The notes under the pieces: model-generated
Databases searched by the model: none
Told to the model about the DNA's origin: nothing
What the model saw: the letters and a program-made list of their open reading frames with translations, nothing else
Shown: piece by piece, positions 9,493 to 46,665 of the stretch
Layout of the letters: every line of letters begins with the position of its first letter
How positions within the stretch are numbered: position 1 is the stretch's first letter
Source: an uncultured Gammaproteobacteria bacterium
Lineage (GTDB): Bacteria; Patescibacteriota; Microgenomatia; UBA10105; UBA927
NCBI GenBank assembly: GCA_964573695.1
Contig: CAZNKB010000004.1
Span: forward strand, 78,214 to 142,213
Direction of reading: 5' to 3'
DNA length: 64,000 nt
Position numbers and translations under genes: made by a program

Positions 9493-11720
9493 CTTCTGCC
9501 TGCCGGCCACGAAGAAATGATAAGTGGTTCATGATTTTCCTTTGAAAGCTTGCTCCAGATTTCTTCGGTTACAAACGGCATGAATGGATGAAGGAGCTTT
9601 AAATACACCAATAATCCTTGCTTGAGTTGCTTGTTTGAAATCGCACCTTCTTTGGCCTGTTCTATGGCCTGATCACAGAACCAGTGCCAAAAGGTTTCAT
9701 AAAGAATTTCTGCCGCTTCGTTAAATCGGTACCGGTCGATAGCTTTGGTTGTTTTTTTTATCACCTCATCCAGCTTGCTGGTAAATTCTGTTTCTTTGTT
9801 TTCGATACCAGGCATTGCTTCCAGCTCCGCTTGCGTCTGTTGCATTTCCACAAACCGGGCTGCGTTCCAGATTTTGTTGGCGAAGTTCCTCATGCCGCGG
9901 ATCTTGTCTTCCGAAACAGGGATATCACTTCCCGGGCCGGCTCCGAACATAAGCGCCATGCGGAGTGCGTCTGCACCGTATTTTGCCACCATGTCAATCG
10001 GATTCATGACATTTCCCTTGGATTTACTCATTTTCTGGCCCTTGGCGTCGACGACGCGGGAGTGGAGGTGAATGACTTCAAACGGTACGTCGCCGGTCCT
10101 GTATATCCCGAGCATCATCATGCGGGCGACCCAGAAGAAGAGGATGTCCCACATGGTATCAAGGACCGAGGTGGGATAAAAGTATTTGAAGTCTTCATTG
10201 TCGGGAAACCCGAGAGTGGTGATAGGCCACTGACCTGAGAGAAACCATGTATCAAACGTATCGGTCTCGCGGATCCAATTCCCTTCGGCAGGTGCGGTTT
10301 CACCGATATGGATTTCCGGCTGGTTTTCTTTACGTTCGTAAATAGGAACCATGACGCGTTGGATACCTTTGGATATTTCTTCCAGGGAAGCGTGTACTGG
10401 ATAGTATTGGCCGATAGAGCCCTGCTTCAATGTTTTGTTTTTGTCCAGAAACGATACCCAGATACGATGTTCGTGCCCGTCGATTTTGTGCCAGACGGGA
10501 ATTCTGGGACCCCATACGACCTGACGGGAGATGTTCCAGTCGAGGATATTTTTCATCCAGTCGAAGTACATTTTTTCAAACCGTTTAAGCGGAACGATTT
10601 TGGTTTTCCCTTTTTTGACCGCTTCTATCGCCGGTTTAGCAAGATTTTGAGTTTTTACGTACCACTGGGGGAGGGGGAGGGGTTCGATAACCGTGCCGCA
10701 TTTGTAGCATGTCGCCACAGAATGCACGTAGTTTTCGTCCACATGATCCATGAGCCCCTTTGCTGTTAAATCGGCGACCACCTTTTCCCTCGCTGCCTTG
10801 ACCTTAAGACCTGCATACGGGCCGGTTTCTTGAGTTAACCGTCCGTCGAATCCGATTATTTGCTTAAGCGGCAGGTTGTGGCGTTTGGCAATTTCAAAAT
10901 CGGTAAAATCATGTGCCGGCGTGACCTTTGCCGCGCCTGTGCCGAATTTTGGATCTATGGCATCGTCGCTAACGACCTTGACCGTAAACGGTCCGAGCAA
11001 GCCTTCCACCTCAATTTCCTTACCAATCCACGGCTTATACCGCTTATCCTTGGGGTTGACCGCGACGGCGGTATCGCCGAATTTAGTTTCCGGCCGGACG
11101 GTGGCAAGGATAAACGGTCCGTATTTCATGTAGTAGAGTGGGTCGGTTTGCTCCACGCGTTTGACCTCGAGATCGGAGTAGCTTGTACCGCACTTAGTGC
11201 AGTAGTTGACGAGTCGGTCGTCACGATATAGAAGGCCGTCTTTGTGAAGTTTGTAGAAGGTATCAAAGACAATATGGACGATGTTTGGATCCAGTGAATA
11301 TTTATATCTGGTCCAGTCCAGGGAAAACCCCAGGCGTTTCATCTGGTCGCGATTGAGGTTCTTGTTCTGCTCGACGAAGTCGGAGATCATTCCATAAAGC
11401 GTCTCCCTGTCAAAATCAAACCGGCTTTTTCCTTCTTTGGCAAGTCGTTTTTCAAATACATATTGGGTTTCTATGCCGGCATGATCACCGCCGGGGAGCC
11501 ACAGGGTGGGGTCACCCTTCATGCGGTGGTAGCGGATAAGGATGTCTTGCACGGTAAACATGGCGTGTCCCATATGCATTGGGTCGTTTGCGTTAGGGAG
11601 GGGGAGTAGGATAGTGAACGGCTTTTTCTTTTTGTCGATTTTCGGCGTGAAGTAGCCGCCGTTTTCCCACATGCGGTAGATTGCTTCCTCAACTGTTTTC
11701 GGATCGAAGTTTTTGTCCAT
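9489..11720 (-). CDS. valS: Valine--tRNA ligase (class I aaRS, compact form)
   Basis: 743 aa; HIGH-type HMGHA, KMSKS (KMSKSKGN), ValRS-like LWLPGGDHAGIETQ block. Confidence 0.7.
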   Translation of the reverse strand: MDKNFDPKTVEEAIYRMWENGGYFTPKIDKKKKPFTILLPLPNANDPMHMGHAMFTVQDILIRYHRMKGDPTLWLPGGDHAGIETQYVFEKRLAKEGKSRFDFDRETLYGMISDFVEQNKNLNRDQMKRLGFSLDWTRYKYSLDPNIVHIVFDTFYKLHKDGLLYRDDRLVNYCTKCGTSYSDLEVKRVEQTDPLYYMKYGPFILATVRPETKFGDTAVAVNPKDKRYKPWIGKEIEVEGLLGPFTVKVVSDDAIDPKFGTGAAKVTPAHDFTDFEIAKRHNLPLKQIIGFDGRLTQETGPYAGLKVKAAREKVVADLTAKGLMDHVDENYVHSVATCYKCGTVIEPLPLPQWYVKTQNLAKPAIEAVKKGKTKIVPLKRFEKMYFDWMKNILDWNISRQVVWGPRIPVWHKIDGHEHRIWVSFLDKNKTLKQGSIGQYYPVHASLEEISKGIQRVMVPIYERKENQPEIHIGETAPAEGNWIRETDTFDTWFLSGQWPITTLGFPDNEDFKYFYPTSVLDTMWDILFFWVARMMMLGIYRTGDVPFEVIHLHSRVVDAKGQKMSKSKGNVMNPIDMVAKYGADALRMALMFGAGPGSDIPVSEDKIRGMRNFANKIWNAARFVEMQQTQAELEAMPGIENKETEFTSKLDEVIKKTTKAIDRYRFNEAAEILYETFWHWFCDQAIEQAKEGAISNKQLKQGLLVYLKLLHPFMPFVTEEIWSKLSKENHEPLIISSWPAGRS

Positions 11721-11782
11721 AGATATAGTTTACACCACAAAAAAAGTACCGTTTTTCTATAAGGACCCAACTTTTCTTGAAA

Positions 11783-11805
11783 GGCTGGGTGGTACCACCT
11801 TAGTT
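11783..11805 (-). promoter_or_regulatory. T-box-like antiterminator core in valS 5' leader (candidate)
   Basis: On minus strand AACTAAGGTGGTACCACCCAGCC resembles T-box consensus AAUUAGGGUGGUACCGCGG; UGGU bulge would pair with an A73 discriminator as in tRNA-Val. Confidence 0.35.
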
Positions 11806-11953
11806 GCTTCTCATTTTTTGCTATTACGGGCAATACCGTCCCGATTACTTATTTTACAAAAAATGTTGATCGGGAAGCTCGTCTGGTGACTAATCAGACT
11901 CGGACGCTTTTCAGACTAACATATCTGATTATAGTTGATGCGTATTGAGCCTG

Positions 11954-13629: not shown

Positions 13630-13704
13630 CTGGTGCCAGCGGCAGGGATCGAACCTGCGACAAATGCCTTATGAAGACACTGCTCTACCACTGAGCTACG
13701 CTGG
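13630..13704 (-). tRNA. tRNA with CAT anticodon (elongator tRNA-Met or lysidine-modified tRNA-Ile2)
   Basis: Reverse complement GCCAGCGTAGCTCAGTGGTAGAGCAGTGTCTTCATAAGGCATTTGTCGCAGGTTCGATCCCTGCCGCTGGCACCA folds as cloverleaf: 7-bp acceptor, TTCGATC T-loop, anticodon loop TTCATAA, encoded CCA. Confidence 0.8.
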
Positions 13705-13948
13705 CTATACGAACTATTTAGTTTATTAACACTGCTCCCGCCTCTTCGGCGGGTCGCCGATGAGGCGACTACCACTGATACACCGGCCTGTATATGCACA
13801 TTTTATCAAATTGGCCTGATAAGGCAACCCGTACAATATCCTGTTTACATGATACAATAGAGCTATTCAACCACTCTGATCGTATGCTTTGCTCTTGTGC
13901 TTAACAGGTACGTGATAGATTGGTGTAAGTGGGAGGTGAGTATAATTC

Positions 13949-16769: not shown

Positions 16770-16842
16770 TGGTTGCGGGGCTGGGAATCGCACCCAGCCT
16801 AGGAGATTATGAGCCTCCTGTGCAACTTTACACTACCCCGCG
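16770..16842 (-). tRNA. Initiator-type tRNA-fMet (CAT) with C1·A72 mismatch
   Basis: Reverse complement CGCGGGGTAGTGTAAAGTTGCACAGGAGGCTCATAATCTCCTAGGCTGGGTGCGATTCCCAGCCCCGCAACCA; 5' CGCGGGG and 3' CCCCGCAACCA ends identical to E. coli tRNA-fMet; anticodon loop CUCAUAA. Confidence 0.75.
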
Positions 16843-18019: not shown

Positions 18020-18065
18020 TTTTATGATACCAAAATTTTGTCCTATTTGACGTTTATGTTATACT

Positions 18066-18402
18066 GTGGGTCACAAGTAAACCCCGATGAGATCGGGGTA
18101 AATAAAAGCGCATGAGGAAATTGATTGGGATTTTCTCTTTTTAGCCTCAAGCTAAGCGCTGACAAGGCTATCCGCCGATAAGGCAGAATGTATTGTCCGG
18201 AGCCGAAACCGTCAAAAGACAGGAACGAGTGTCGTAAACAAACGGAGCTCGTCAAGAATGAGGTTATCCTCAACTGACGCCCCGATCTGATCGGGGTTAT
18301 TTGTAGGGAGAGGATAATACAAGCAGGGTGGCACCGCCGTAAGAAGGCCCCTGCAAGTTTTTCAGGATATTCCTGAGGAATTTGCAGGGGCTTTTTTGAT
18401 GC
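18066..18402 (+). promoter_or_regulatory. T-box riboswitch leader (predicted tRNA-Trp responsive) with intrinsic terminator
   Basis: T-box core AGCAGGGTGGCACCGCCG at 18322-18339 (consensus AGGGUGGNACCGCG, N=C); terminator GGCCCCTGCAA…TTGCAGGGGC + TTTTTT at 18346-18397; ~330-nt untranslated leader upstream of an operon ending in trpS. Confidence 0.65.
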
Positions 18403-18424
18403 GGAAAACAAATAGGAAAATTTT

Positions 18425-18826
18425 ATGAAAACACATATTACGTTGGTCAATATTCGAAAGCTTATAGCACATGAGCGGGTTGATGCAGCGCGCCTGCGTT
18501 CGGTGCGTGCGAATATACGTGCAAAACAGGTAATCCGCAGGCCTGTGATAGTTGACAGAGCCTCGCATGTGATCCTGGACGGTCATCACCGTGTCCGTGT
18601 GCTTTGGGAGATGGGAGCAAAACGGGTGCCGGTTTTATACGTCCGGTACAAGGATGCCAAAATCTGTGTGCAGCTTCGCAGAAAAGATATGTTGTCGGCT
18701 ATATTGAAGCGCTATGTACTGGATATGGCCGTAAATGGAAAGCTTTTTCCGTCAAAAACGACGCGGCATATCCTTCCCGGCAGAAGGGCAATGCGGGCAA
18801 TACGCATAAAAGAATTGCTGGAGTAA
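18425..18826 (+). CDS. ParB/Srx (ParB N-terminal domain-like) small protein
   Basis: 133 aa; HVILDGHHRV motif typical of ParB/sulfiredoxin-fold domain; first gene after T-box leader. Confidence 0.45.
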   Translation: MKTHITLVNIRKLIAHERVDAARLRSVRANIRAKQVIRRPVIVDRASHVILDGHHRVRVLWEMGAKRVPVLYVRYKDAKICVQLRRKDMLSAILKRYVLDMAVNGKLFPSKTTRHILPGRRAMRAIRIKELLE

Positions 18827-18847
18827 CACTATGCATACATATATGTT

Positions 18848-20245
18848 TTGGAAAAGCAGGGGGAGGGAATATTGGCGGTATACGCTTCGTCCGTGGTGTC
18901 GGTGAATATAAAAAGCAAGAAAGGAACTATATTTATGAACATACAAACAACATATAAACAGGAGATGCCGGATTCGTATCTGAATATCTCCTATTACTTA
19001 AACAAATACCTGCATGAATTGCCGGAGCCGCCGTTGGATCCTAAAACCAAGCGGCCGATAGGTCCCGAAGCGCTTGCACGGTTGTTTCCGCAGGAATTGA
19101 TTAGGCAGGAGGTAACACTTGCAGAATTCGTGCCGATTCCGGAAGAGGTGCAGGAATTGTACCGAATGTACCGGCCTACGCCGTTATTACGGGCGACAAG
19201 GTTGGAAAAGGCGTTGGGTACTCCGGCAAGGATATATTTTAAATACGAAGGAGTTTCCCCGGTGGGGAGCCATAAACTCAATACGGCACTCGCGCAGGCA
19301 TACTACAACAAAAAAGAGGGTGTCCGAATGCTTACGACGGAAACAGGGGCAGGTCAGTGGGGATCGGCACTTGCACTTGCCTGCAGGCTTTTTGACATGA
19401 AGTGCAAGGTGTTTATGGTCAAGAGTTCGTATGCCCAAAAGCCGTACCGTAAAACCGTCATGCATCTTTATGGGGCAGAGGTGACGGCGAGTCCGTCACG
19501 GGAAACACACTCAGGAGCCGAATTTCTTTCCCGCGACCCTGATACGACAGGGAGTCTCGGAATGGCGATATCCGAAGCAATAGAGGTGGCAGCAACGACC
19601 GAAGGCGCGCATTATGCCTTAGGAAGCGTGTTAAATCACGTGTTGCTTCACCAGACCATTATCGGGCAGGAGGCAAAACTGCAGCTTATGAAACAGGATA
19701 TTGCCCCTGACGTTGTGATCGGCTGTTGCGGGGGAGGGAGCAACCTGGCGGGTATCAGTTTTCCGTTCCTAGCGGATAAGCTGTCCGGAAAAAGGAAGGC
19801 GCTCCGCGTGGTGGCGGTAGAGCCCGAGGCGTGCCCGTCACTCACCCGCGGAGAATACCGGTACGACTCCGGTGATTCTGCAGGCATGACGCCTCTTATG
19901 AAGATGTATACGGTCGGAAGTGATTTCGTTCCGCCTGCGATTCATGCCGGCGGCCTGCGGTATCATGGGGATTCGCCGCTCATAAGTTTTCTGTATCATA
20001 AGAAGCTTATTGAAGCAGCGGCCTTCAGTCAGCAGGATGTGTTCAGGGCAGCAGAACTATTTGCGCAAACAGAGGGGATTATTCCGGCGCCGGAATCGTC
20101 GCATGCCATAGCACAGGTAATCTATGAGGCGGCGCGCGCGAAAAAGGAAGGTAAGAGGACCGTTATACTGTTTAATCTTTCCGGGCACGGGCTGCTGGAC
20201 CTCGGGGCATACGAGGAATTTTTGCAGGGAGGACTGTACACATAA
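18848..20245 (+). CDS. TrpB2-type tryptophan synthase beta-like PLP-dependent enzyme (standalone, no trpA nearby)
   Basis: 465 aa; PLP-lysine region [24 protein letters not shown] glycine loop; TrpB2-length N-terminal extension. Confidence 0.7.
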
Positions 20246-20296: not shown

Positions 20297-21724
20297 ATGC
20301 AAAGGAGGAAATCTATGAAACGATTATTATCAGGAATTACACCAAGCGGGGACGGAAGCTTACATATCGGTAATTATTTGGGGGCCGTGCGGCAGTTTAT
20401 TGAGCTTGCAAAAACCCACGAAACATACCTGATGGTGGCTGATCTCCACGGGCTTACGACTATTCAGGATAAAACCCGATTGCAGCATAACATCGAAACG
20501 CTTGTGTTAAATGAACTTGCCTTGCTCCGGGGATTTTTGACGGAAGAACAGTTCAGTAAAATCATATTTTTCCGTCAATCCGATGTGACCATGCATACGG
20601 AGTGCCAGTCGATTCTTAACAACGTGACGCCCTTGGGACTTCTTAAGCGGGCCCACGCGTATAAAGATAAATTGCAAAAAGATGTCATGGAAGATGATAT
20701 AAATGTCGGTTTATTTAGCTATCCGATGCTCATGGCGGCGGATATTTTGTTGTACAAACCGGATTTGGTCCCGGTTGGTAAAGATCAGAAACAGCATATC
20801 GAAATAACCCGGGATATCGCTGAGAGATTTAACAAAATTTACAAAAAGAACGTGTTTAAGCTCCTTGAGCCCTATATTCCGGATGAAGTCGCGGTGATCA
20901 TGGGTACGGACGGAAAACGGAAAATGAGTAAAAGCCTGGGTAATGTTATCGCCATATTTGAGTCTGAAGATGTGATACGTAAACAGGTTATGGGGACGTA
21001 TACCGACCCCACTAGAAAACACGTAACTGATCCGGGTCATATCGAAGGGAATATGGTGTTTACGTACCTTGAATTTTTTGGAGAGCCGGCCCGCATCGAT
21101 TCGCTTAAAGAATCCTATAAAGCCGGCAACGTATCCGACGTGGAGGTGAAAGAATATTTATTTGATAGTCTCATGACATTTTTTGGTCCAGCACGGAAGG
21201 CTTATGAAGAATTAAAGAGCAATCCGGAAGTGGTGAAGGATATTCTTAAGTACGGCCAGGCTAGGGCACTAGCTGTCGCCGTAGAAACCATGAAAGGCGT
21301 CCGTGAAGCCACAGGAATCACAACGGGTTATTCGTTTTTCGAGTACGCGAAGCCTAGAGCGGGAAGTTCTATTTCCATAGAGGATTTTGCCCGGGTGGAG
21401 GTTCGTGTGGGGCGCGTTGTGAAAGCTACCAACAAAGAGGGGAGTGAGAAACTTATCCGTTTGGTGGTAGACATAGGAGAGAAAGTGCCCCGCATTGTAT
21501 TTACAGGGGTTCGAGGATTTGGGTACACGCCAAAAGATTTTGAAGGTAAACAATTTCTTTTTATCACCAACCTCATGTTTCGGAAGATGATGGACGAGGA
21601 AAGTCAGGGGATGATCCTTGCTGTGGACTCGCCTCGCTTAAGCTCCGGCGAAGCGGGCGGGGTAGATAAGAAGCCACAATTTATTTCCGCCGAAGGTATG
21701 CCGGTTGGATCCAAAATTCGCTAA
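20297..21724 (+). CDS. trpS: Tryptophan--tRNA ligase fused to C-terminal tRNA-binding (Trbp111/EMAP-like OB-fold) domain
   Basis: 475 aa; HIGH-type GDGSLHIGNYLGA; KMSKS (KRKMSKSLGN); C-terminal FARVEVRVGRVVKATNKEGSEKLIRLVVDIGE typical of the tRNA-binding OB-fold found on MetRS/PheT. Confidence 0.8.
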   Translation: MQRRKSMKRLLSGITPSGDGSLHIGNYLGAVRQFIELAKTHETYLMVADLHGLTTIQDKTRLQHNIETLVLNELALLRGFLTEEQFSKIIFFRQSDVTMHTECQSILNNVTPLGLLKRAHAYKDKLQKDVMEDDINVGLFSYPMLMAADILLYKPDLVPVGKDQKQHIEITRDIAERFNKIYKKNVFKLLEPYIPDEVAVIMGTDGKRKMSKSLGNVIAIFESEDVIRKQVMGTYTDPTRKHVTDPGHIEGNMVFTYLEFFGEPARIDSLKESYKAGNVSDVEVKEYLFDSLMTFFGPARKAYEELKSNPEVVKDILKYGQARALAVAVETMKGVREATGITTGYSFFEYAKPRAGSSISIEDFARVEVRVGRVVKATNKEGSEKLIRLVVDIGEKVPRIVFTGVRGFGYTPKDFEGKQFLFITNLMFRKMMDEESQGMILAVDSPRLSSGEAGGVDKKPQFISAEGMPVGSKIR

Positions 21725-25016: not shown

Positions 25017-26132
25017 ATGAAAATTGCTCTTATCCATGATTATTTGCGTGAATATGGCGGTGCTGAGCGGGTTGTCGAAGCAATGCACGACATATGGCCT
25101 CTAGCGCCCTTATATACCTCGTTTGTAGATTGGCAATCCCTCGGCAGTCATGCAACAAGGTTCAAGGATTGGGATATACGGACAAGTTGGGTGCAAACAA
25201 ACCCTATTGTCAAAGCATGGCATTCGCCCCTTAGATTTTTGGCTCCGAAAGTGTGGGAGAGCTTTGATCTTTCCGGATACGATGTTGTGCTTTCGAGCAG
25301 CGGCTGGTTTATCTGTCGTGGGGTGAAAGTTATTCCTCCGACAAAACATATTTGTTATATTCATCACCCGCCAAGAAATCTTTACGGGTATGCCACCGGC
25401 CGGACATTCCAAAAATACGCAGCCGTAAGGGCATATGCGACGTTTATCAATTTTTTTATGCGGCAATACGACTACAAAACAGCGCAACTGGTGGATTATT
25501 TTGTCGCAAACTCTTTGGAAACCCAACGAAGGGTCAAGAAGTTTTACCGACGGGAATCAACAGTGATTTATCCTCCTGTTGATATGCCGCCCCTAAACGA
25601 AAAAGCAGTTCCCGTTCAAAGAACATACTACTTAAGCGTGGGAAGGTTGGTATGGGCAAAACAGATTGACCTTATCGTAAAGGCCGCAAATATGAGAAAG
25701 TTTACGCTAAAAATTGTTGGAACGGGTCCAGAAGACGAACATCTCCGCGCCCTTTCGGGTCCCACTGTCGAGTTTTTGGGATCGGTTTCCGACGAAGAGC
25801 TCAACGCGTTATATCGGGGGGCGAAAGCAACGATATTTTGTGCACAGGACGAGGATTTCGGTATGGTACCTATAGAATCTATGGCACATGGGACTCCGGT
25901 CATCGCCCTTTCTCAAGGAGGAGTTAGAGAGACCGTGATTGACTCTGAAACGGGTATCTTATTCAATGTCGGGGATGTGCCGTCGCTTGTCAGTGCAATC
26001 GGAAAGTTTGAGCGAAAGCACACGGACTGGTCAGCGGCATGTCAAAGACAAGCCGCCAGATTTTCGAAGGCACGTTTTCAACGGGAGATCGTGGATTTTG
26101 TCAATAAACATATGACAAAACGTCTCATATGA
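25017..26132 (+). CDS. Glycosyltransferase family 4 (GT-B fold)
   Basis: 371 aa; EDFGMVPIESMAHGTPVIA (E-x7-E-like retaining GT motif). Confidence 0.75.
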   Translation: MKIALIHDYLREYGGAERVVEAMHDIWPLAPLYTSFVDWQSLGSHATRFKDWDIRTSWVQTNPIVKAWHSPLRFLAPKVWESFDLSGYDVVLSSSGWFICRGVKVIPPTKHICYIHHPPRNLYGYATGRTFQKYAAVRAYATFINFFMRQYDYKTAQLVDYFVANSLETQRRVKKFYRRESTVIYPPVDMPPLNEKAVPVQRTYYLSVGRLVWAKQIDLIVKAANMRKFTLKIVGTGPEDEHLRALSGPTVEFLGSVSDEELNALYRGAKATIFCAQDEDFGMVPIESMAHGTPVIALSQGGVRETVIDSETGILFNVGDVPSLVSAIGKFERKHTDWSAACQRQAARFSKARFQREIVDFVNKHMTKRLI

Positions 26133-46624: not shown

Positions 46625-46665
46625 ATAAATCCTCCTTGACCCCGATAAAGTCGGGGTTGACTTAT

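What the first reader, a model, noticed from the sequence alone, without database searches (positions are those of the whole stretch)
18066..18402. T-box riboswitch leader upstream of a ParB/Srx-like, TrpB2, TrpRS operon
The ~330-nt untranslated leader contains a near-consensus T-box sequence, AGCAGGGTGGCACCGCCG (18322-18339). It is followed by a strong intrinsic terminator, GGCCCCTGCAA…TTGCAGGGGC + T6 (18346-18397), ending 28 nt before the first start codon.

The UGGC bulge predicts pairing with a tRNA 3' end GCCA, i.e. discriminator G73, as in bacterial tRNA-Trp. The operon ends in trpS and contains a TrpB2 enzyme, so a tryptophan-responsive antitermination switch is the parsimonious reading. 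T-box control outside Firmicutes/Actinobacteria is uncommon. I cannot locate the UGG specifier confidently by eye; candidates include TGGG at 18127-18130.
Basis: partly seen in the sequence, partly recalled or inferred. Interest (0 to 1): 0.7.

Follow-up and report, generated by a model that had tools for sequence, protein, structure and literature searches.

The report
Platform-less tryptophan T-box in a CPR bacterium
This is a tRNA-sensing "T-box" RNA switch that should turn on a tryptophan-salvage operon when tRNA-Trp is uncharged, and it is unusual because it pairs a minimal tRNA-reading arm, so far described only for translation-controlling T-boxes, with a strong transcription terminator in a candidate-phyla-radiation bacterium.

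Summary

- **Expression platform (textbook).** Helix A1 GCAGGG/CCCUGC, 7-nt bulge UGGCACC and helix A2 GCC/GGC overlap a -41.5 kcal/mol terminator followed by U6.
- **Why Rfam misses it.** RF00230 scores 17 bits against a cutoff of 93, because Stem I is "ultrashort". It has a K-turn-type base, a short helix and an apical loop UGAU-UGG-G. The Trp codon is at 18126-18128. There is no tRNA-elbow platform.
- **Rest of the leader.** Stem II, a Stem IIA/B pseudoknot with F-box CCGUCA, one extra hairpin, and a long Stem III whose tip is a GC hairpin followed by a U-rich tract.
- **Support.** Twenty homologous leaders, mostly from Gottesmanbacteria-type genomes, covary strongly. A model built without the window or its close relatives hits 18101-18251 at E about 3e-23.
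- **Codon assignment.** A valS leader in the same window has the same design with GUC in the loop. In relatives a tRNA-Trp gene follows the terminator directly, and its discriminator base fits the bulge.
- **Operon.** A mini serine kinase, the O-phosphoserine-dependent enzyme TrpB2, and TrpRS.

I file it as a new variant of a known kind: a short-Stem-I T-box that acts through transcription termination. Function has not been tested experimentally.

The parts
18038..18065 (+). Promoter-like region: TTGTCC, 16-nt spacer, TATACT, with an extended -10 (TGTTATACT, 18057-18065). A conserved TTGACG at 18047-18052 lies only 7 nt upstream of the -10.
   Evidence: Consensus scan. The TGnTATACT and TTGAC motifs are conserved upstream of all related leaders. 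The transcription start, about 18072, is inferred and not shown.
18081..18099 (+). Palindromic hairpin ACCCCGAUGAGAUCGGGGU at the 5' end, found only in the window. It is a near reverse-complement copy of the Stem III apex.
   Evidence: It is absent from the closest relatives L173 and L001. Its function is unknown.
18107..18160 (+). Ultrashort Stem I built as a three-way junction. P1 is AGCG 18107-18110 with CGCU 18157-18160. The 5' strand carries the GA motif (AUGA). P2 is 18114-18121 with 18130-18137. The apical specifier loop UGAUUGGG is at 18122-18129. The variable hairpin P3 is UUAGC 18141-18145 with GCUAA 18151-18155.
   Evidence: Pair counts on 20 leaders: P1 94% paired, and P2 94% paired with 7 of 8 pairs changed on both sides. 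P3 changes sequence completely between leaders and is absent in 5 of them. No AG bulge or distal loop is present. RF00230 skips its Stem I core here.
18126..18128 (+). Specifier codon UGG (Trp), followed by the purine G18129.
   Evidence: TTGG is invariant in the loop of all 20 leaders. The valS leaders have GUC plus A at the same loop position. A tRNA-Trp(CCA) gene lies downstream in relatives.
18161..18197 (+). Stem II. The lower helix is GACAAG with AUUGUC. The conserved internal loop is GCUA (18167-18170) opposite AUGU (18188-18191), the candidate S-turn position. An upper helix follows.
   Evidence: 87% paired, with 6 of 10 pairs changed on both sides. RF00230 aligns its Stem II to this module in L122. 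The consensus S-turn motif (GAA/AGUA) is not matched.
18198..18223 (+). Stem IIA/B pseudoknot. IIA is CGG 18198-18200 with CCG 18209-18211. The F-box CCGUCA is at 18209-18214. IIB pairs loop CC 18203-18204 with GG 18222-18223.
   Evidence: IIA is 100% paired, with GC/AU exchange at one pair. IIB pair 112-135 is GC in 13 and CG in 7 sequences with none unpaired. Other leaders show GCUA/UAGC, GCUU/AAGC, GCC/GGC and GCCU/AGGC. The F-box is identical to the N. farcinica CCGUCA quoted in PMC7583486.
18226..18251 (+). Extra hairpin H-a: CGAG-UGU-CG...CG-GAG-CUCG. It has no counterpart in the canonical T-box model.
   Evidence: 100% paired. The outer helix switches between CGAG/CUCG, CAUG/CAUG and CAUA/UAUG. 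It is an unmodelled 28-nt insertion in the RF00230 alignment and is absent from the valS leaders.
18256..18322 (+). Stem III with its flanking purines. GAAUG (18256-18260) matches the RRRxG motif. The basal helix is GUUAUCCUC 18263-18271 with GAGGAUAAU 18310-18318. The apex is a GC hairpin at 18279-18297 followed by the U-rich UUAUUUGU. CAA precedes helix A1.
   Evidence: A basal helix is found in all 20 leaders. 92% are paired and 8 of 9 pairs change on both sides (anchored and partly hand-fitted alignment). RF00230 aligns its Stem III and the flanking 'AGuG...AAaUa' here, with the apex as an insertion. The apex is flagged as terminator-like.
18323..18354 (+). Antiterminator. Helix A1 is GCAGGG 18323-18328 with CCCUGC 18349-18354. 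The T-box bulge UGGCACC is at 18329-18335. Helix A2 is GCC 18336-18338 with GGC 18346-18348.
   Evidence: A constrained fold gives -14.1 kcal/mol. A1 is 99% and A2 98% paired, with 6 of 8 pairs changed on both sides. This is the best-aligned part of the RF00230 match.
18346..18397 (+). Intrinsic terminator: a hairpin of 20 or more pairs at 18346-18391, then U6 at 18392-18397. Its 5' strand includes the 3' strands of A2 and A1.
   Evidence: -41.5 kcal/mol. The SD at 18414-18419 stays unpaired.
18425..18826 (+). First gene: a 133-aa ParB-fold protein resembling a shortened free serine kinase (SerK/SbnI).
   Evidence: NCBIfam SerK 8e-16 and SbnI 4e-9, both partial matches. PDB chains 1vk1, 5x0b and 5uje match in two stretches, residues 5-80 and 91-131, the second including KTTRH. 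It sits next to TrpB2 in 35 of 80 loci.
18848..20245 (+). TrpB2-type tryptophan synthase beta-like enzyme.
   Evidence: PRK12391 691 bits and TIGR01415 628 bits. TrpB2 enzymes use O-phospho-L-serine (Busch 2014, as cited in PMC11917138).
20297..21724 (+). Tryptophanyl-tRNA synthetase with a C-terminal tRNA_bind domain.
   Evidence: TIGR00233 267 bits; PF00579 plus PF01588. The same architecture occurs in L173, L177 and L180.

Best explanation
The leader at 18066-18402 is a tryptophan-specific T-box riboswitch that works by transcription antitermination.

Proposed mechanism:
1. Uncharged tRNA-Trp pairs its CCA anticodon with UGG (18126-18128), which is displayed in the apical loop of an ultrashort Stem I.
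2. Stem I has no elbow-binding platform. [quoted passage not shown]
3. The free 3' end G73-C-C-A of the tRNA pairs with UGGC of the bulge (18329-18332). [quoted passage not shown]
4. The terminator (18346-18397) then cannot form, and RNA polymerase reads into the operon.
5. Charged tRNA-Trp cannot stabilise the antiterminator, so the far more stable terminator forms and transcription stops 27 nt before the first gene.

The operon encodes a mini serine kinase, the O-phosphoserine-dependent TrpB2 and TrpRS. The output would be salvage of indole to tryptophan and more charging capacity.

Shown here: all the sequence and structure elements, their covariation, the alternative pairing, the match between codon and gene, and the compatibility with tRNA-Trp discriminators in relatives.

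Inferred: tRNA binding, the role of Stem II and IIA/B, termination itself, and the enzymology.
For: **Expression platform.**
- A1, the 7-nt bulge UGGCACC and A2 fold at -14.1 kcal/mol.
- They share GGCCCCUGC with a -41.5 kcal/mol terminator followed by U6.

**Homologous leaders.**
- 20 non-redundant leaders were collected.
- In the 5' domain 91.3% of cells are paired, against 34-40% when partners are slid. 21 of 35 pairs change on both sides. The covariation score is 0.431, against at most 0.115 slid and 0.187 shuffled.
- In the discriminator domain 95.4% are paired, 14 of 17 pairs change on both sides, and the score is 0.694 against at most 0.179.

**Leave-out model.** A covariance model built without the window hits 18101-18251 at 116.3 bits, E 2.6e-23.

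**Link to the curated family.** RF00230 aligns over the whole leader of class members L122 (42.8 bits, E 2e-8) and L081 (30.3 bits). The K-turn start, Stem II, the IIA/B F-box, Stem III with its flanks and the antiterminator are all in register.

**Specifier.**
- UUGG is invariant in the loop.
- The valS leaders of the window, L002 and L003 have the same design with GUC plus A. The downstream gene is ValRS at 802 bits.

**tRNA-Trp.**
- A tRNA-Trp(CCA) gene directly follows the terminator in L002, L092, L118, L166, L170 and L177.
- The pairings are A73 with UGGU (3 loci), G73 with UGGC (1 locus) and G73 with UGGU, a wobble (2 loci).

**Transcriptional rather than translational control.**
- There is a U-run after the hairpin and the SD is unpaired.
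- In relatives the regulated unit begins with a tRNA gene, which cannot be controlled through SD sequestration.

**Regulon logic.**
- The operon is conserved in L001-L004, L173, L177 and L180.
- Canonical long-Stem-I Trp T-boxes precede trpB2 and the serK-like gene in Bacillota loci.
Against: - RF00230 is not significant on the window itself: 17.2 bits against a gathering score of 93.
- The elbow-binding platform is absent. The review PMC7583486 describes it as essential for transcriptional T-boxes.
- The K-turn's non-bulged strand is interrupted by a third helix in the window's version.
- The Stem II internal loop (GCUA/AUGU) does not match the consensus S-turn (GAA/AGUA).
- The tRNA-Trp gene of this genome is not in the window, so its G73 is inferred from relatives.
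- The discriminator-domain alignment (A3) was anchored and partly hand-corrected, so its percentage of paired cells is biased upward.
- A terminator-like hairpin with a U-rich tail sits inside Stem III, upstream of the T-box sequence. Its effect is unknown.
- There is no experimental evidence of any kind.
Confidence: 0.9

Rival explanations
1. Two-checkpoint switch. The GC hairpin plus U-tract at the tip of Stem III (18279-18304) is itself a working terminator or a strong pause site. Polymerase must pass it before the T-box sequence is made. This would give a platform-less Stem I extra time to capture tRNA, or impose a first decision on whether tRNA is bound before the second decision on whether it is charged. 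It is an addition to the best explanation and does not replace it.
For: - The hairpin is flagged as terminator-like.
- Hairpin plus U5-U8 is conserved at this position although the stem sequence differs: CCCCGAUC, GUGCUUCC, CUCCCC, CCCACC and UCCUGG.
- RF00230 has no counterpart; it is an insertion in the Stem III loop.
- T-boxes in another CPR lineage (L023, L024) also have a hairpin plus U7 before the T-box sequence.
- The review argues that transcriptional T-boxes need fast tRNA capture, which the platform normally provides.
Against: - I found no conserved alternative pairing that would switch this hairpin off.
- In the window and L001 the U-tract is interrupted (UUAUUUGU).
- Part of the U-tract can pair within the Stem III basal helix in some leaders.
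- The valS leaders of the same genomes have no such hairpin.
Confidence: 0.3
2. Translational T-box. As in Actinobacteria, the short-Stem-I leader controls ribosome access, and the 3' hairpin acts as a sequestrator and not as a terminator.
For: Short Stem I's with the codon in an apical loop have so far been described for translational T-boxes (PMC7583486 and PMC11297988).
Against: - The hairpin is followed by U6 and ends 27 nt before the ATG.
- The SD at 18414-18419 lies outside every predicted helix.
- In six relatives the element is followed directly by a tRNA-Trp gene, which is not translated.
Confidence: 0.04
3. Canonical class I T-box with a long Stem I that I failed to recognise. [quoted passage not shown]
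For: The leader is long enough at about 330 nt, and every other canonical module is present.
Against: - Every nucleotide between the K-turn start (18107) and A1 (18323) is accounted for by covarying helices that leave no room for an AG bulge and distal loop.
- RF00230 deletes 82-84 positions of its Stem I core in the window and in L122.
- Minimal relatives (L166, L170, L092) have a Stem I of only about 35 nt.
Confidence: 0.03
4. Not a tRNA switch. The element would be an ordinary terminator or attenuator, either leader-peptide or protein-mediated, with a chance T-box-like motif.
For: The T-box core alone is not significant in 64 kb, and RF00230 gives E about 0.1 on the window.
Against: - No small ORF in the leader contains a Trp codon.
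- The whole 5' domain, which does not include the T-box motif, is conserved with covariation and is detected at E 2.6e-23 by a leave-out model.
- The loop codon tracks the regulated synthetase: UGG with trpS and GUC with valS.
- The bulge base tracks the tRNA discriminator.
Confidence: 0.02

Closest known systems
Class I (transcriptional) T-box leaders, Rfam RF00230, for example B. subtilis tyrS and glyQS, and the Trp T-boxes of Bacillota
   Same: - The T-box sequence and 7-nt UGGN-ACC bulge between helices A1 and A2.
- A mutually exclusive intrinsic terminator.
- The AUAAAAGCG...UGA start with a GA motif.
- Stem II and the Stem IIA/B pseudoknot with F-box.
- Stem III flanked by RRRxG and AA.
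- A specifier followed by a purine.
- The regulated genes, here an aminoacyl-tRNA synthetase plus amino-acid supply genes.

Canonical Trp T-boxes precede the same trpB2 and serK-like gene pair in Bacillota loci.
   Different: - There is no distal Stem I: no AG bulge, no distal loop and so no elbow platform. The codon lies in an apical loop and not in an internal Specifier Loop.
- An extra hairpin (H-a) lies between IIA/B and Stem III.
- Stem III is elongated, with a terminator-like hairpin and U-tract at its tip.
- It falls far below the family's gathering score.
- The host is a CPR (Microgenomates/Gottesmanbacteria-type) bacterium.
Short or 'ultrashort' Stem I T-boxes of Actinobacteria (ileS of M. 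tuberculosis, M. smegmatis and N. farcinica; 'class II' in TBDB)
   Same: - A Stem I reduced to the K-turn plus a hairpin, with the specifier in the apical loop.
- No elbow platform.
- Stem II and the IIA/B pseudoknot retained. The F-box CCGUCA is identical to that of N. farcinica.
- Insertions in the discriminator domain, especially Stem III. The review notes these as frequent in this class.
   Different: - Those leaders regulate translation through an SD sequestrator. This one has a long GC-rich hairpin plus U6, a free SD, and in relatives a tRNA gene as the first regulated unit.
- Different amino acids (Trp and Val, not Ile) and a different phylum.
- A three-way junction at the base of Stem I in most members.
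- I could not run the TBDB class II model here.
Free serine kinases SerK (Thermococcus) and SbnI (S. aureus), as context for the first gene
   Same: - The ParB-like N-terminal domain with H-E and DGHHR motifs.
- The C-terminal F-x-x-KTTRH-(I/V)LP motif.
- Both known enzymes make O-phospho-L-serine (PMC5120207 and PMC12704722).
   Different: - It is 133 aa against about 242-254 aa; the middle ~100 residues are missing.
- It scores far below the NCBIfam cutoffs (58 against 380 bits).
- Its partner is TrpB2, whereas the known enzymes serve cysteine or siderophore pathways.
- Activity is untested.

Membership tests
T-box leader (RF00230) | T-box sequence forming helices A1 and A2 around a 7-nt bulge UGGN-ACC | tested here: met
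   GCAGGG-UGGCACC-GCC...GGC-CCCUGC at 18323-18354. A1 and A2 covary across 19 leaders. This is the best-aligned block in the RF00230 match.
T-box leader (RF00230) | Terminator (or sequestrator) mutually exclusive with the antiterminator | tested here: met
   The terminator at 18346-18391 plus U6 uses the 3' strands of A2 and A1. Energies are -41.5 against -14.1 kcal/mol.
T-box leader (RF00230) | Specifier codon matching the amino acid of the regulated genes, followed by a purine | tested here: met
   UGG-G at 18126-18129 lies upstream of trpB2 and trpS. It is invariant in 20 leaders. The valS leaders have GUC-A at the same loop position.
T-box leader (RF00230) | K-turn (GA motif) at the base of Stem I | tested here: inconclusive
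   Minimal relatives have a textbook arrangement, for example L170 AGC-GAU-GA...GA-GCU. In the window the 5' strand AGCG-CAU-GA is present, but the 3' strand is interrupted by hairpin P3, giving a three-way junction. The geometry cannot be judged from sequence.
T-box leader (RF00230) | Distal Stem I platform (AG bulge plus distal loop, the interdigitated T-loops) that stacks on the tRNA elbow | tested here: not met
   Stem I is only 18107-18160. P2 ends in the specifier loop. RF00230 skips 84 positions of its Stem I core, or 82 in L122.
T-box leader (RF00230) | Stem II with an S-turn | tested here: inconclusive
   The helix is present and covaries and aligns to the model's Stem II. The conserved internal loop is GCUA/AUGU and not GAA/AGUA.
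T-box leader (RF00230) | Stem IIA/B pseudoknot with F-box | tested here: met
   CGG...CCGUCA at 18198-18214. The IIB pairs covary: GC in 13 and CG in 7 sequences at one pair, and four different 3-4 bp combinations across leaders.
T-box leader (RF00230) | Stem III flanked by 5'-RRRxG and AA-3' | tested here: met
   GAAUG-AG-[18263-18271 / 18310-18318]-ACAA-A1. The helix covaries and is aligned to the model's Stem III. It carries a large apical insertion.
T-box leader (RF00230) | Score at or above Rfam's gathering threshold | tested here: not met
   17.2 bits against 93 on the window. The best class member reaches 42.8 bits, E 2e-8. The cutoff also misses canonical Bacillota Trp T-boxes.
T-box leader (RF00230) | Bulge base N complementary to the discriminator of the cognate tRNA | tested here: met
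   This was tested in relatives that carry tRNA-Trp next to the leader. All 6 are compatible, and 4 of the 6 are Watson-Crick with A73/U and G73/C exchange. The window's own tRNA-Trp gene is not in the window.
T-box leader (RF00230) | Binding of uncharged cognate tRNA and tRNA-dependent antitermination | not testable with these tools
   This needs in vitro transcription and binding assays.
Short-Stem-I translational T-box (TBDB class II, actinobacterial ileS) | Specifier in the apical loop of a truncated Stem I, with Stem II and IIA/B retained | tested here: met
   Described for this class in PMC7583486.
Short-Stem-I translational T-box (TBDB class II, actinobacterial ileS) | Expression platform that sequesters the Shine-Dalgarno sequence (no intrinsic terminator) | tested here: not met
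   The hairpin is followed by U6 and the SD at 18414-18419 is unpaired. A tRNA gene follows the element in relatives.
Short-Stem-I translational T-box (TBDB class II, actinobacterial ileS) | Match to the TBDB class II covariance model | not tested
Free serine kinase (SerK/SbnI), first ORF | Full-length match above the NCBIfam cutoff, including the central domain | tested here: not met
   57.9 bits against a cutoff of 380. Only profile positions 15-97 match in NCBIfam. The PDB alignments cover the N-terminal domain and the C-terminal KTTRH motif but skip chain residues ~98-200.

The most novel reading that the evidence does not exclude
This leader would represent an uncatalogued class of T-boxes in CPR/Patescibacteria that regulate transcription without the tRNA-elbow platform.

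- That would contradict the current generalisation that transcriptional T-boxes need the long Stem I.
- The class may compensate with lineage-specific additions: the H-a hairpin and a Stem III tipped by a hairpin plus U-tract that pauses or partly terminates polymerase.
- In some genomes it controls the tRNA-Trp gene itself.
- The operon it controls would be a minimal pathway in which a 133-aa mini serine kinase supplies O-phosphoserine to TrpB2 for indole salvage.
Probability: 0.4. Interest if true: 0.75.

Novelty: new variant of a known kind. Interest (0 to 1): 0.6.

Why it matters
**For T-box mechanism.**
- Current reviews state that transcriptional T-boxes generally require the long Stem I, because its elbow-binding platform speeds tRNA capture before polymerase reaches the terminator. 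Short Stem I's are treated as a feature of translational, actinobacterial T-boxes (PMC7583486, PMC11297988).
- A natural family that combines an ultrashort Stem I with a strong intrinsic terminator offers a direct test of that kinetic argument. In relatives the first regulated unit is a tRNA gene, which cannot be controlled at the level of translation.
- The Stem III hairpin plus U-tract offers a concrete candidate for how the time window might be extended.

**For annotation.**
- RF00230 at its gathering score misses this leader, and it also misses ordinary Trp T-boxes in Bacillota metagenome-assembled genomes (MAGs).
- T-box regulons in CPR genomes are therefore probably under-called. There are at least two in this 64-kb window.

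**For CPR physiology.** These bacteria have reduced metabolism. A tRNA-Trp-controlled operon of serine kinase, TrpB2 and TrpRS suggests that they make tryptophan from scavenged indole plus O-phosphoserine.

Tried and rejected
1. **Rfam as arbiter.** RF00230 gave no hit at the gathering score and 17 bits in a permissive search. I did not take this as refutation. The same cutoff misses canonical Trp T-boxes in Bacillota loci, and the model aligns class member L122 end to end at E 2e-8.

2. **My first reading of the middle of the leader.** I took it to be a separate hairpin 'H-b' (GAGG-UUAU-CCUC) followed by an independent terminator 'T1' and a purine linker. I abandoned this when folds and duplex searches showed a covarying long-range helix, 18263-18271 with 18310-18318, that encloses T1. 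Together they form one long Stem III. H-b may still be a transient co-transcriptional fold.

3. **The minimum-free-energy fold of the whole leader.** It pairs the 5' palindrome 18081-18099 with 18279-18297 (z = -9.1). I did not adopt this. Both segments are self-complementary hairpins, and the 5' copy is absent from the closest relatives.

4. **Other T-box-like motifs in the window.**
   - 41094(-) lies in coding sequence.
   - 45843(+) has no leader features.
   - The covariance-model hit at 25347-25448(-), E 0.6, is antisense within a 371-aa ORF.

5. **Leader-peptide attenuation.** No small ORF in the leader has a Trp codon.

6. **The ~130-nt insertion in some relatives as a dispersed mobile repeat.** nhmmer finds it only in or just after Trp leaders, and it is not in the window. 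It has no Rfam match.

7. **Automatic extraction of helix registers for the discriminator domain.** It failed for L002, L175, L165 and L177, and I corrected those rows by hand.

8. **Metagenome pattern scan.** It returned 92 loci, most of them chance matches in coding DNA. I kept 17 loci with true leaders (15 after removing duplicates), identified by a downstream T-box core or, for the truncated L140, by near-identity to L090.

9. **Literature searches.** Searches for T-box together with 'Candidate Phyla Radiation' or 'Patescibacteria' found nothing. This is weak negative evidence only. Sherwood et al. 2015 could not be read.
Full report
**1. Observation**

- AGCAGGGTGGCACCGCCG is at 18322-18339.
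- The hairpin is at 18346-18391, followed by T6 at 18392-18397.
- The first ORF starts at 18425.
- The consensus scan calls the hairpin terminator-like with 20 pairs. It also finds a promoter-like TTGTCC-16-TATACT with an extended -10 at 18038-18065.

Taken alone, the T-box core is not significant in 64 kb. Rfam's T-box model does not reach significance on the window: nothing at the gathering score, and 17.2 bits against a cutoff of 93 in a permissive search. In that weak alignment the antiterminator matches well, but 84 positions of the model's Stem I core are skipped.

**2. Genes and organism**

Downstream lie three genes, followed by FtsH and a 5'-3' exonuclease.
- A 133-aa ParB-fold protein at 18425-18826.
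- A TrpB2-type enzyme at 18848-20245 (PRK12391, 691 bits).
- TrpRS with a C-terminal tRNA_bind domain at 20297-21724.

The closest homologues of the small protein come from Candidatus Gottesmanbacteria and other Microgenomates/Patescibacteria MAGs. The window is therefore most likely from a CPR bacterium; this is an inference from homologue labels.

**3. Related leaders**

A genome scan with an alignment of the small protein, a metagenome scan with a pattern from the conserved 5' module and four contig look-ups gave 20 non-redundant leaders of the same kind. The T-box core with UGGC or UGGU recurs directly upstream of the gene family in Gottesmanbacteria-type loci.

In many Bacillota loci the core lies about 1.5 kb upstream, ahead of trpB2. 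Those leaders are canonical long-Stem-I T-boxes with GAA-UGG-A specifier loops.

RF00230 at the gathering score finds none of these, including the Bacillota ones. In a permissive search RF00230 covers the whole leader of L122 (42.8 bits) and L081 (30.3 bits).

The L122 alignment (E 2e-8) maps the modules one to one.
- The AUAAAAGCG...UGA start is matched.
- The Stem I core is shortened from 82 to 40 nt.
- Stem II is matched.
- IIA/B with its F-box is matched.
- A 28-nt insertion is not modelled.
- Stem III and its conserved flanks are matched, with an insertion at the apex.
- The T-box sequence and antiterminator are matched.

**4. Anatomy of the window's leader**

*Stem I (18107-18160).* It consists of a 4-5 bp base (AGCG/CGCU) with AUGA on the 5' strand, and an 8-9 bp helix (18114-18121 with 18130-18137) capped by the loop UGAUUGGG. 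A small variable hairpin (18141-18155) makes a three-way junction.

In the simplest relatives the variable hairpin is missing and the base is a textbook K-turn arrangement. An example is L170, AGC-GAU-GA-helix-loop-helix-GA-GCU. Nothing corresponds to the AG bulge and distal loop that form the elbow platform.

*Middle modules.*
- Stem II is at 18161-18197.
- The IIA hairpin is at 18198-18211 and the F-box CCGUCA at 18209-18214. That sequence is identical to the N. farcinica F-box quoted in the review.
- The IIB pseudoknot pairs 18203-18204 with 18222-18223.
- An extra hairpin H-a is at 18226-18251.

*Pair counts on the 20 leaders.*

| Measure | Named structure | Partners slid | Shuffled |
|---|---|---|---|
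| Cells paired | 91.3% | 34-40% | 77.6% |
| Pairs changed on both sides | 21 of 35 | 3-10 | 15.2 |
| Covariation score | 0.431 | at most 0.115 | 0.187 |

One pseudoknot pair is GC in 13 and CG in 7 sequences, with no exceptions. Across leaders the IIB pairing appears as GCUA/UAGC, GCUU/AAGC, GCC/GGC and GCCU/AGGC.

*Stem III and the antiterminator.* I first read the next stretch as a small hairpin followed by an independent terminator-like hairpin (18279-18297). Folds and duplex searches showed instead that GUUAUCCUC (18263-18271) pairs with GAGGAUAAU (18310-18318) around that hairpin. The same enclosing helix exists in all 20 leaders with different sequences. The whole is Stem III, flanked by GAAUG (the RRRxG motif) and AA, as the review describes for the discriminator domain.

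On an anchored alignment of Stem III, A1 and A2, 95.4% of cells pair and 14 of 17 pairs change on both sides. The covariation score is 0.694 against at most 0.179 for slid controls. That alignment is fitted, so only the covariation measures carry weight.

The antiterminator folds at -14.1 kcal/mol and shares GGCCCCUGC with the -41.5 kcal/mol terminator.

*Independent test.* A covariance model of the 5' domain was built from the 16 more distant leaders, leaving out the window and its three closest relatives. It hits 18101-18251 at 116.3 bits, E 2.6e-23, the only significant hit in the window.

**5. Specificity**

UUGG is invariant in the apical loop. Three independent lines tie it to tRNA-Trp.

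1. The same window holds a second T-box on the minus strand (about 11950-11735), upstream of ValRS (802 bits). It has the same short Stem I, and its loop is AUUA-GUC-AC. The valS leaders of L002 and L003 have CCA-GUC-A. The codon in the loop therefore follows the regulated synthetase.
2. In six relatives a tRNA-Trp(CCA) gene lies directly after the terminator.
3. The discriminator of those tRNAs fits the variable bulge base: A73 with UGGU in L118, L166 and L170 (L170 read by hand); G73 with UGGC in L177; and G73 with UGGU, a wobble, in L002 and L092.

The window has UGGC, which predicts G73. Its own tRNA-Trp gene is not in the window.

**6. Mode of action**

- The hairpin is followed by U6, and the SD is unpaired in the fold.
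- No leader ORF contains a Trp codon.
- In relatives the first regulated unit is a tRNA gene.

Control is therefore at transcription termination, not at translation initiation and not by leader-peptide attenuation.

The literature I could read equates short Stem I's with translational T-boxes and states that transcriptional ones generally need the long Stem I. [quoted passage not shown] Searches for T-box together with CPR or Patescibacteria found nothing.

I therefore rate this a new variant of a known kind. The open-access search is incomplete, and I could not read the original paper on actinobacterial T-boxes.

**7. Open points**

- The tip of Stem III is a GC hairpin followed by a U-run. 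It is strong in most relatives and interrupted in the window. It looks like a pause site or terminator and is transcribed before the T-box sequence. I found no conserved structure that would switch it off. A programmed pause that gives the platform-less Stem I time to bind tRNA is my preferred guess, but it is only a guess.
- H-a has an invariant 3x3 internal loop and no known role.
- The 5' palindrome at 18081-18099 occurs only in the window.

**8. Operon logic**

The small protein aligns to the solved free serine kinases SerK and SbnI in two stretches. One is the N-terminal ParB-like domain, in which the window protein's E17 aligns with E30 of SerK. The other is the C-terminal F-x-x-KTTRH-(I/V)LP motif. 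About 100 central residues are missing.

SerK and SbnI make O-phospho-L-serine. [quoted passage not shown] The small gene is adjacent to and co-directional with trpB2 in 35 of 80 loci from CPR bacteria, Bacillota and several archaeal phyla.

The operon thus reads as: serine to O-phosphoserine, then O-phosphoserine plus indole to tryptophan, then charging of tRNA-Trp. All three genes are under control of uncharged tRNA-Trp. The enzymology is inferred.

**9. Verdict**

The added finding is that this is a short-Stem-I T-box acting through a transcription terminator. My confidence that it is a functional Trp T-box acting by antitermination is about 0.9. My confidence that the class is undescribed is moderate.

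Noticed in passing
window 11735-11950 (minus strand), upstream of ORF 9489-11720 (-): A second T-box in the window, upstream of valS (ValRS, 802 bits). It has a canonical TTGACA-17-TATAAT promoter and the same ultrashort Stem I (AGC-GUCC-GA-GUCUG-[AUUA-GUC-AC]-CAGAC-GA-GCU). It also has Stem II, IIA/B (CGG-UAUUGC-CCGUAA...GCAA), the bulge UGGUACC and a U7 run. There is no recognisable Stem III and no H-a, and the terminator hairpin is weak and atypical (-16 kcal/mol fold). The L002 and L003 orthologues have clear terminators.
   Followed up: partly
window 18425-18826 (+); loci L001-L080: The 133-aa first gene looks like a 'mini' free serine kinase: the SerK/SbnI N-terminal domain plus the C-terminal KTTRH motif, with the middle ~100 residues missing. 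It is adjacent to and co-directional with a TrpB2 gene in 35 of 80 loci across CPR bacteria, Bacillota and archaea. This suggests that it supplies O-phosphoserine to TrpB2. I found no paper making this link, and neither Makino 2016 nor the 2025 survey of the ParB fold mentions tryptophan.
   Followed up: partly
L002 4926-4999; L092; L118; L166; L170 4162-4235; L177 3927-3999: In six related genomes the Trp T-box terminator is followed directly by a tRNA-Trp(CCA) gene, in some cases ahead of the serK-like gene. The T-box would then control transcription of its own ligand's gene. This is not the arrangement in the window.
   Followed up: partly
L090 484-622; L092 2455-2575; L115 4379-4518 and 4199-4306; L165 1753-1890; L140; L103 2280-2373; L122 947-1042: A ~95-150-nt two-domain structured element occurs only inside Stem III (just after the apical hairpin's U-run) or just after the final terminator of Trp leaders. 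The consensus fold has 19 of 40 pairs kept through changes on both sides. The first hairpin has a conserved symmetric loop with tandem GA. There is no Rfam match, no copy elsewhere in about 1.3 Mb of fetched loci, and none in the window.
   Followed up: partly
window 18081-18099, 18279-18297 and 46640-46656: The palindrome CCCCGAT-NNN-ATCGGGG occurs three times in the window against 0.2 expected by chance. The 5' copy in the leader is missing from the closest relatives (L173, L001). It could pair with the Stem III apex over 18 of 19 positions. The third copy was not examined.
   Followed up: partly
window 18047-18065 and the equivalent positions in L001-L004 and L173: All Trp leaders keep TTGAC(N) only 7-8 nt upstream of an extended -10 (TGnTATACT). 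That is too close to serve as a -35 element for this -10. It may be a regulator site or a feature of the promoters of these organisms.
   Followed up: no
window 20297-21724 (+); L175 6930-8411: TrpRS carries a C-terminal tRNA_bind (Trbp111/EMAP-II-like) domain, conserved in L173, L177 and L180. In L175 the operon differs: it runs serK-like, trpB2, an unknown ORF, an Asp/Glu racemase, and a TrpRS-family protein fused to a tRNA_edit domain.
   Followed up: no
L010, L012, L013, L019, L025, L041, L049, L068, L073, L074, L076: Bacillota and other MAGs carry canonical long-Stem-I Trp T-boxes (UGGC bulge, GAA-UGG-A specifier) ahead of trpB2 and the serK-like gene. None reaches RF00230's 93-bit gathering score among the loci tested.
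   Followed up: partly
L023 about 60-440; L024 about 2300-2680: T-boxes in another CPR lineage have a different 5' architecture containing GGGUUGGGU. They also have a hairpin plus U7 just before the T-box sequence. In L024 the T-box lies upstream of trpB2 and the serK-like gene.
   Followed up: no
L170 1992-2177(-); L166 2859-3064(+); L092 4827-5021(-); L115 7614-7805(+); L118 9375-9566(-): Group I introns (RF00028, 46-80 bits) lie within a few kb of the Trp leaders in five related contigs. None was found in the window.
   Followed up: no
window 16770-16842 (-) and 13631-13705 (-): There are two tRNA-Met(CAT) genes. The one at 16770-16842 has a C1-A72 mismatch at the top of the acceptor stem, the hallmark of a bacterial initiator tRNA.
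   Followed up: no
window 21705-21724: The FtsH ORF (TTG start at 21705) overlaps the end of trpS by 20 nt. FtsH and the following 5'-3' exonuclease may therefore be co-transcribed with the T-box-controlled operon. The gene order trpS-ftsH is conserved in L173, L177 and L180.
   Followed up: no
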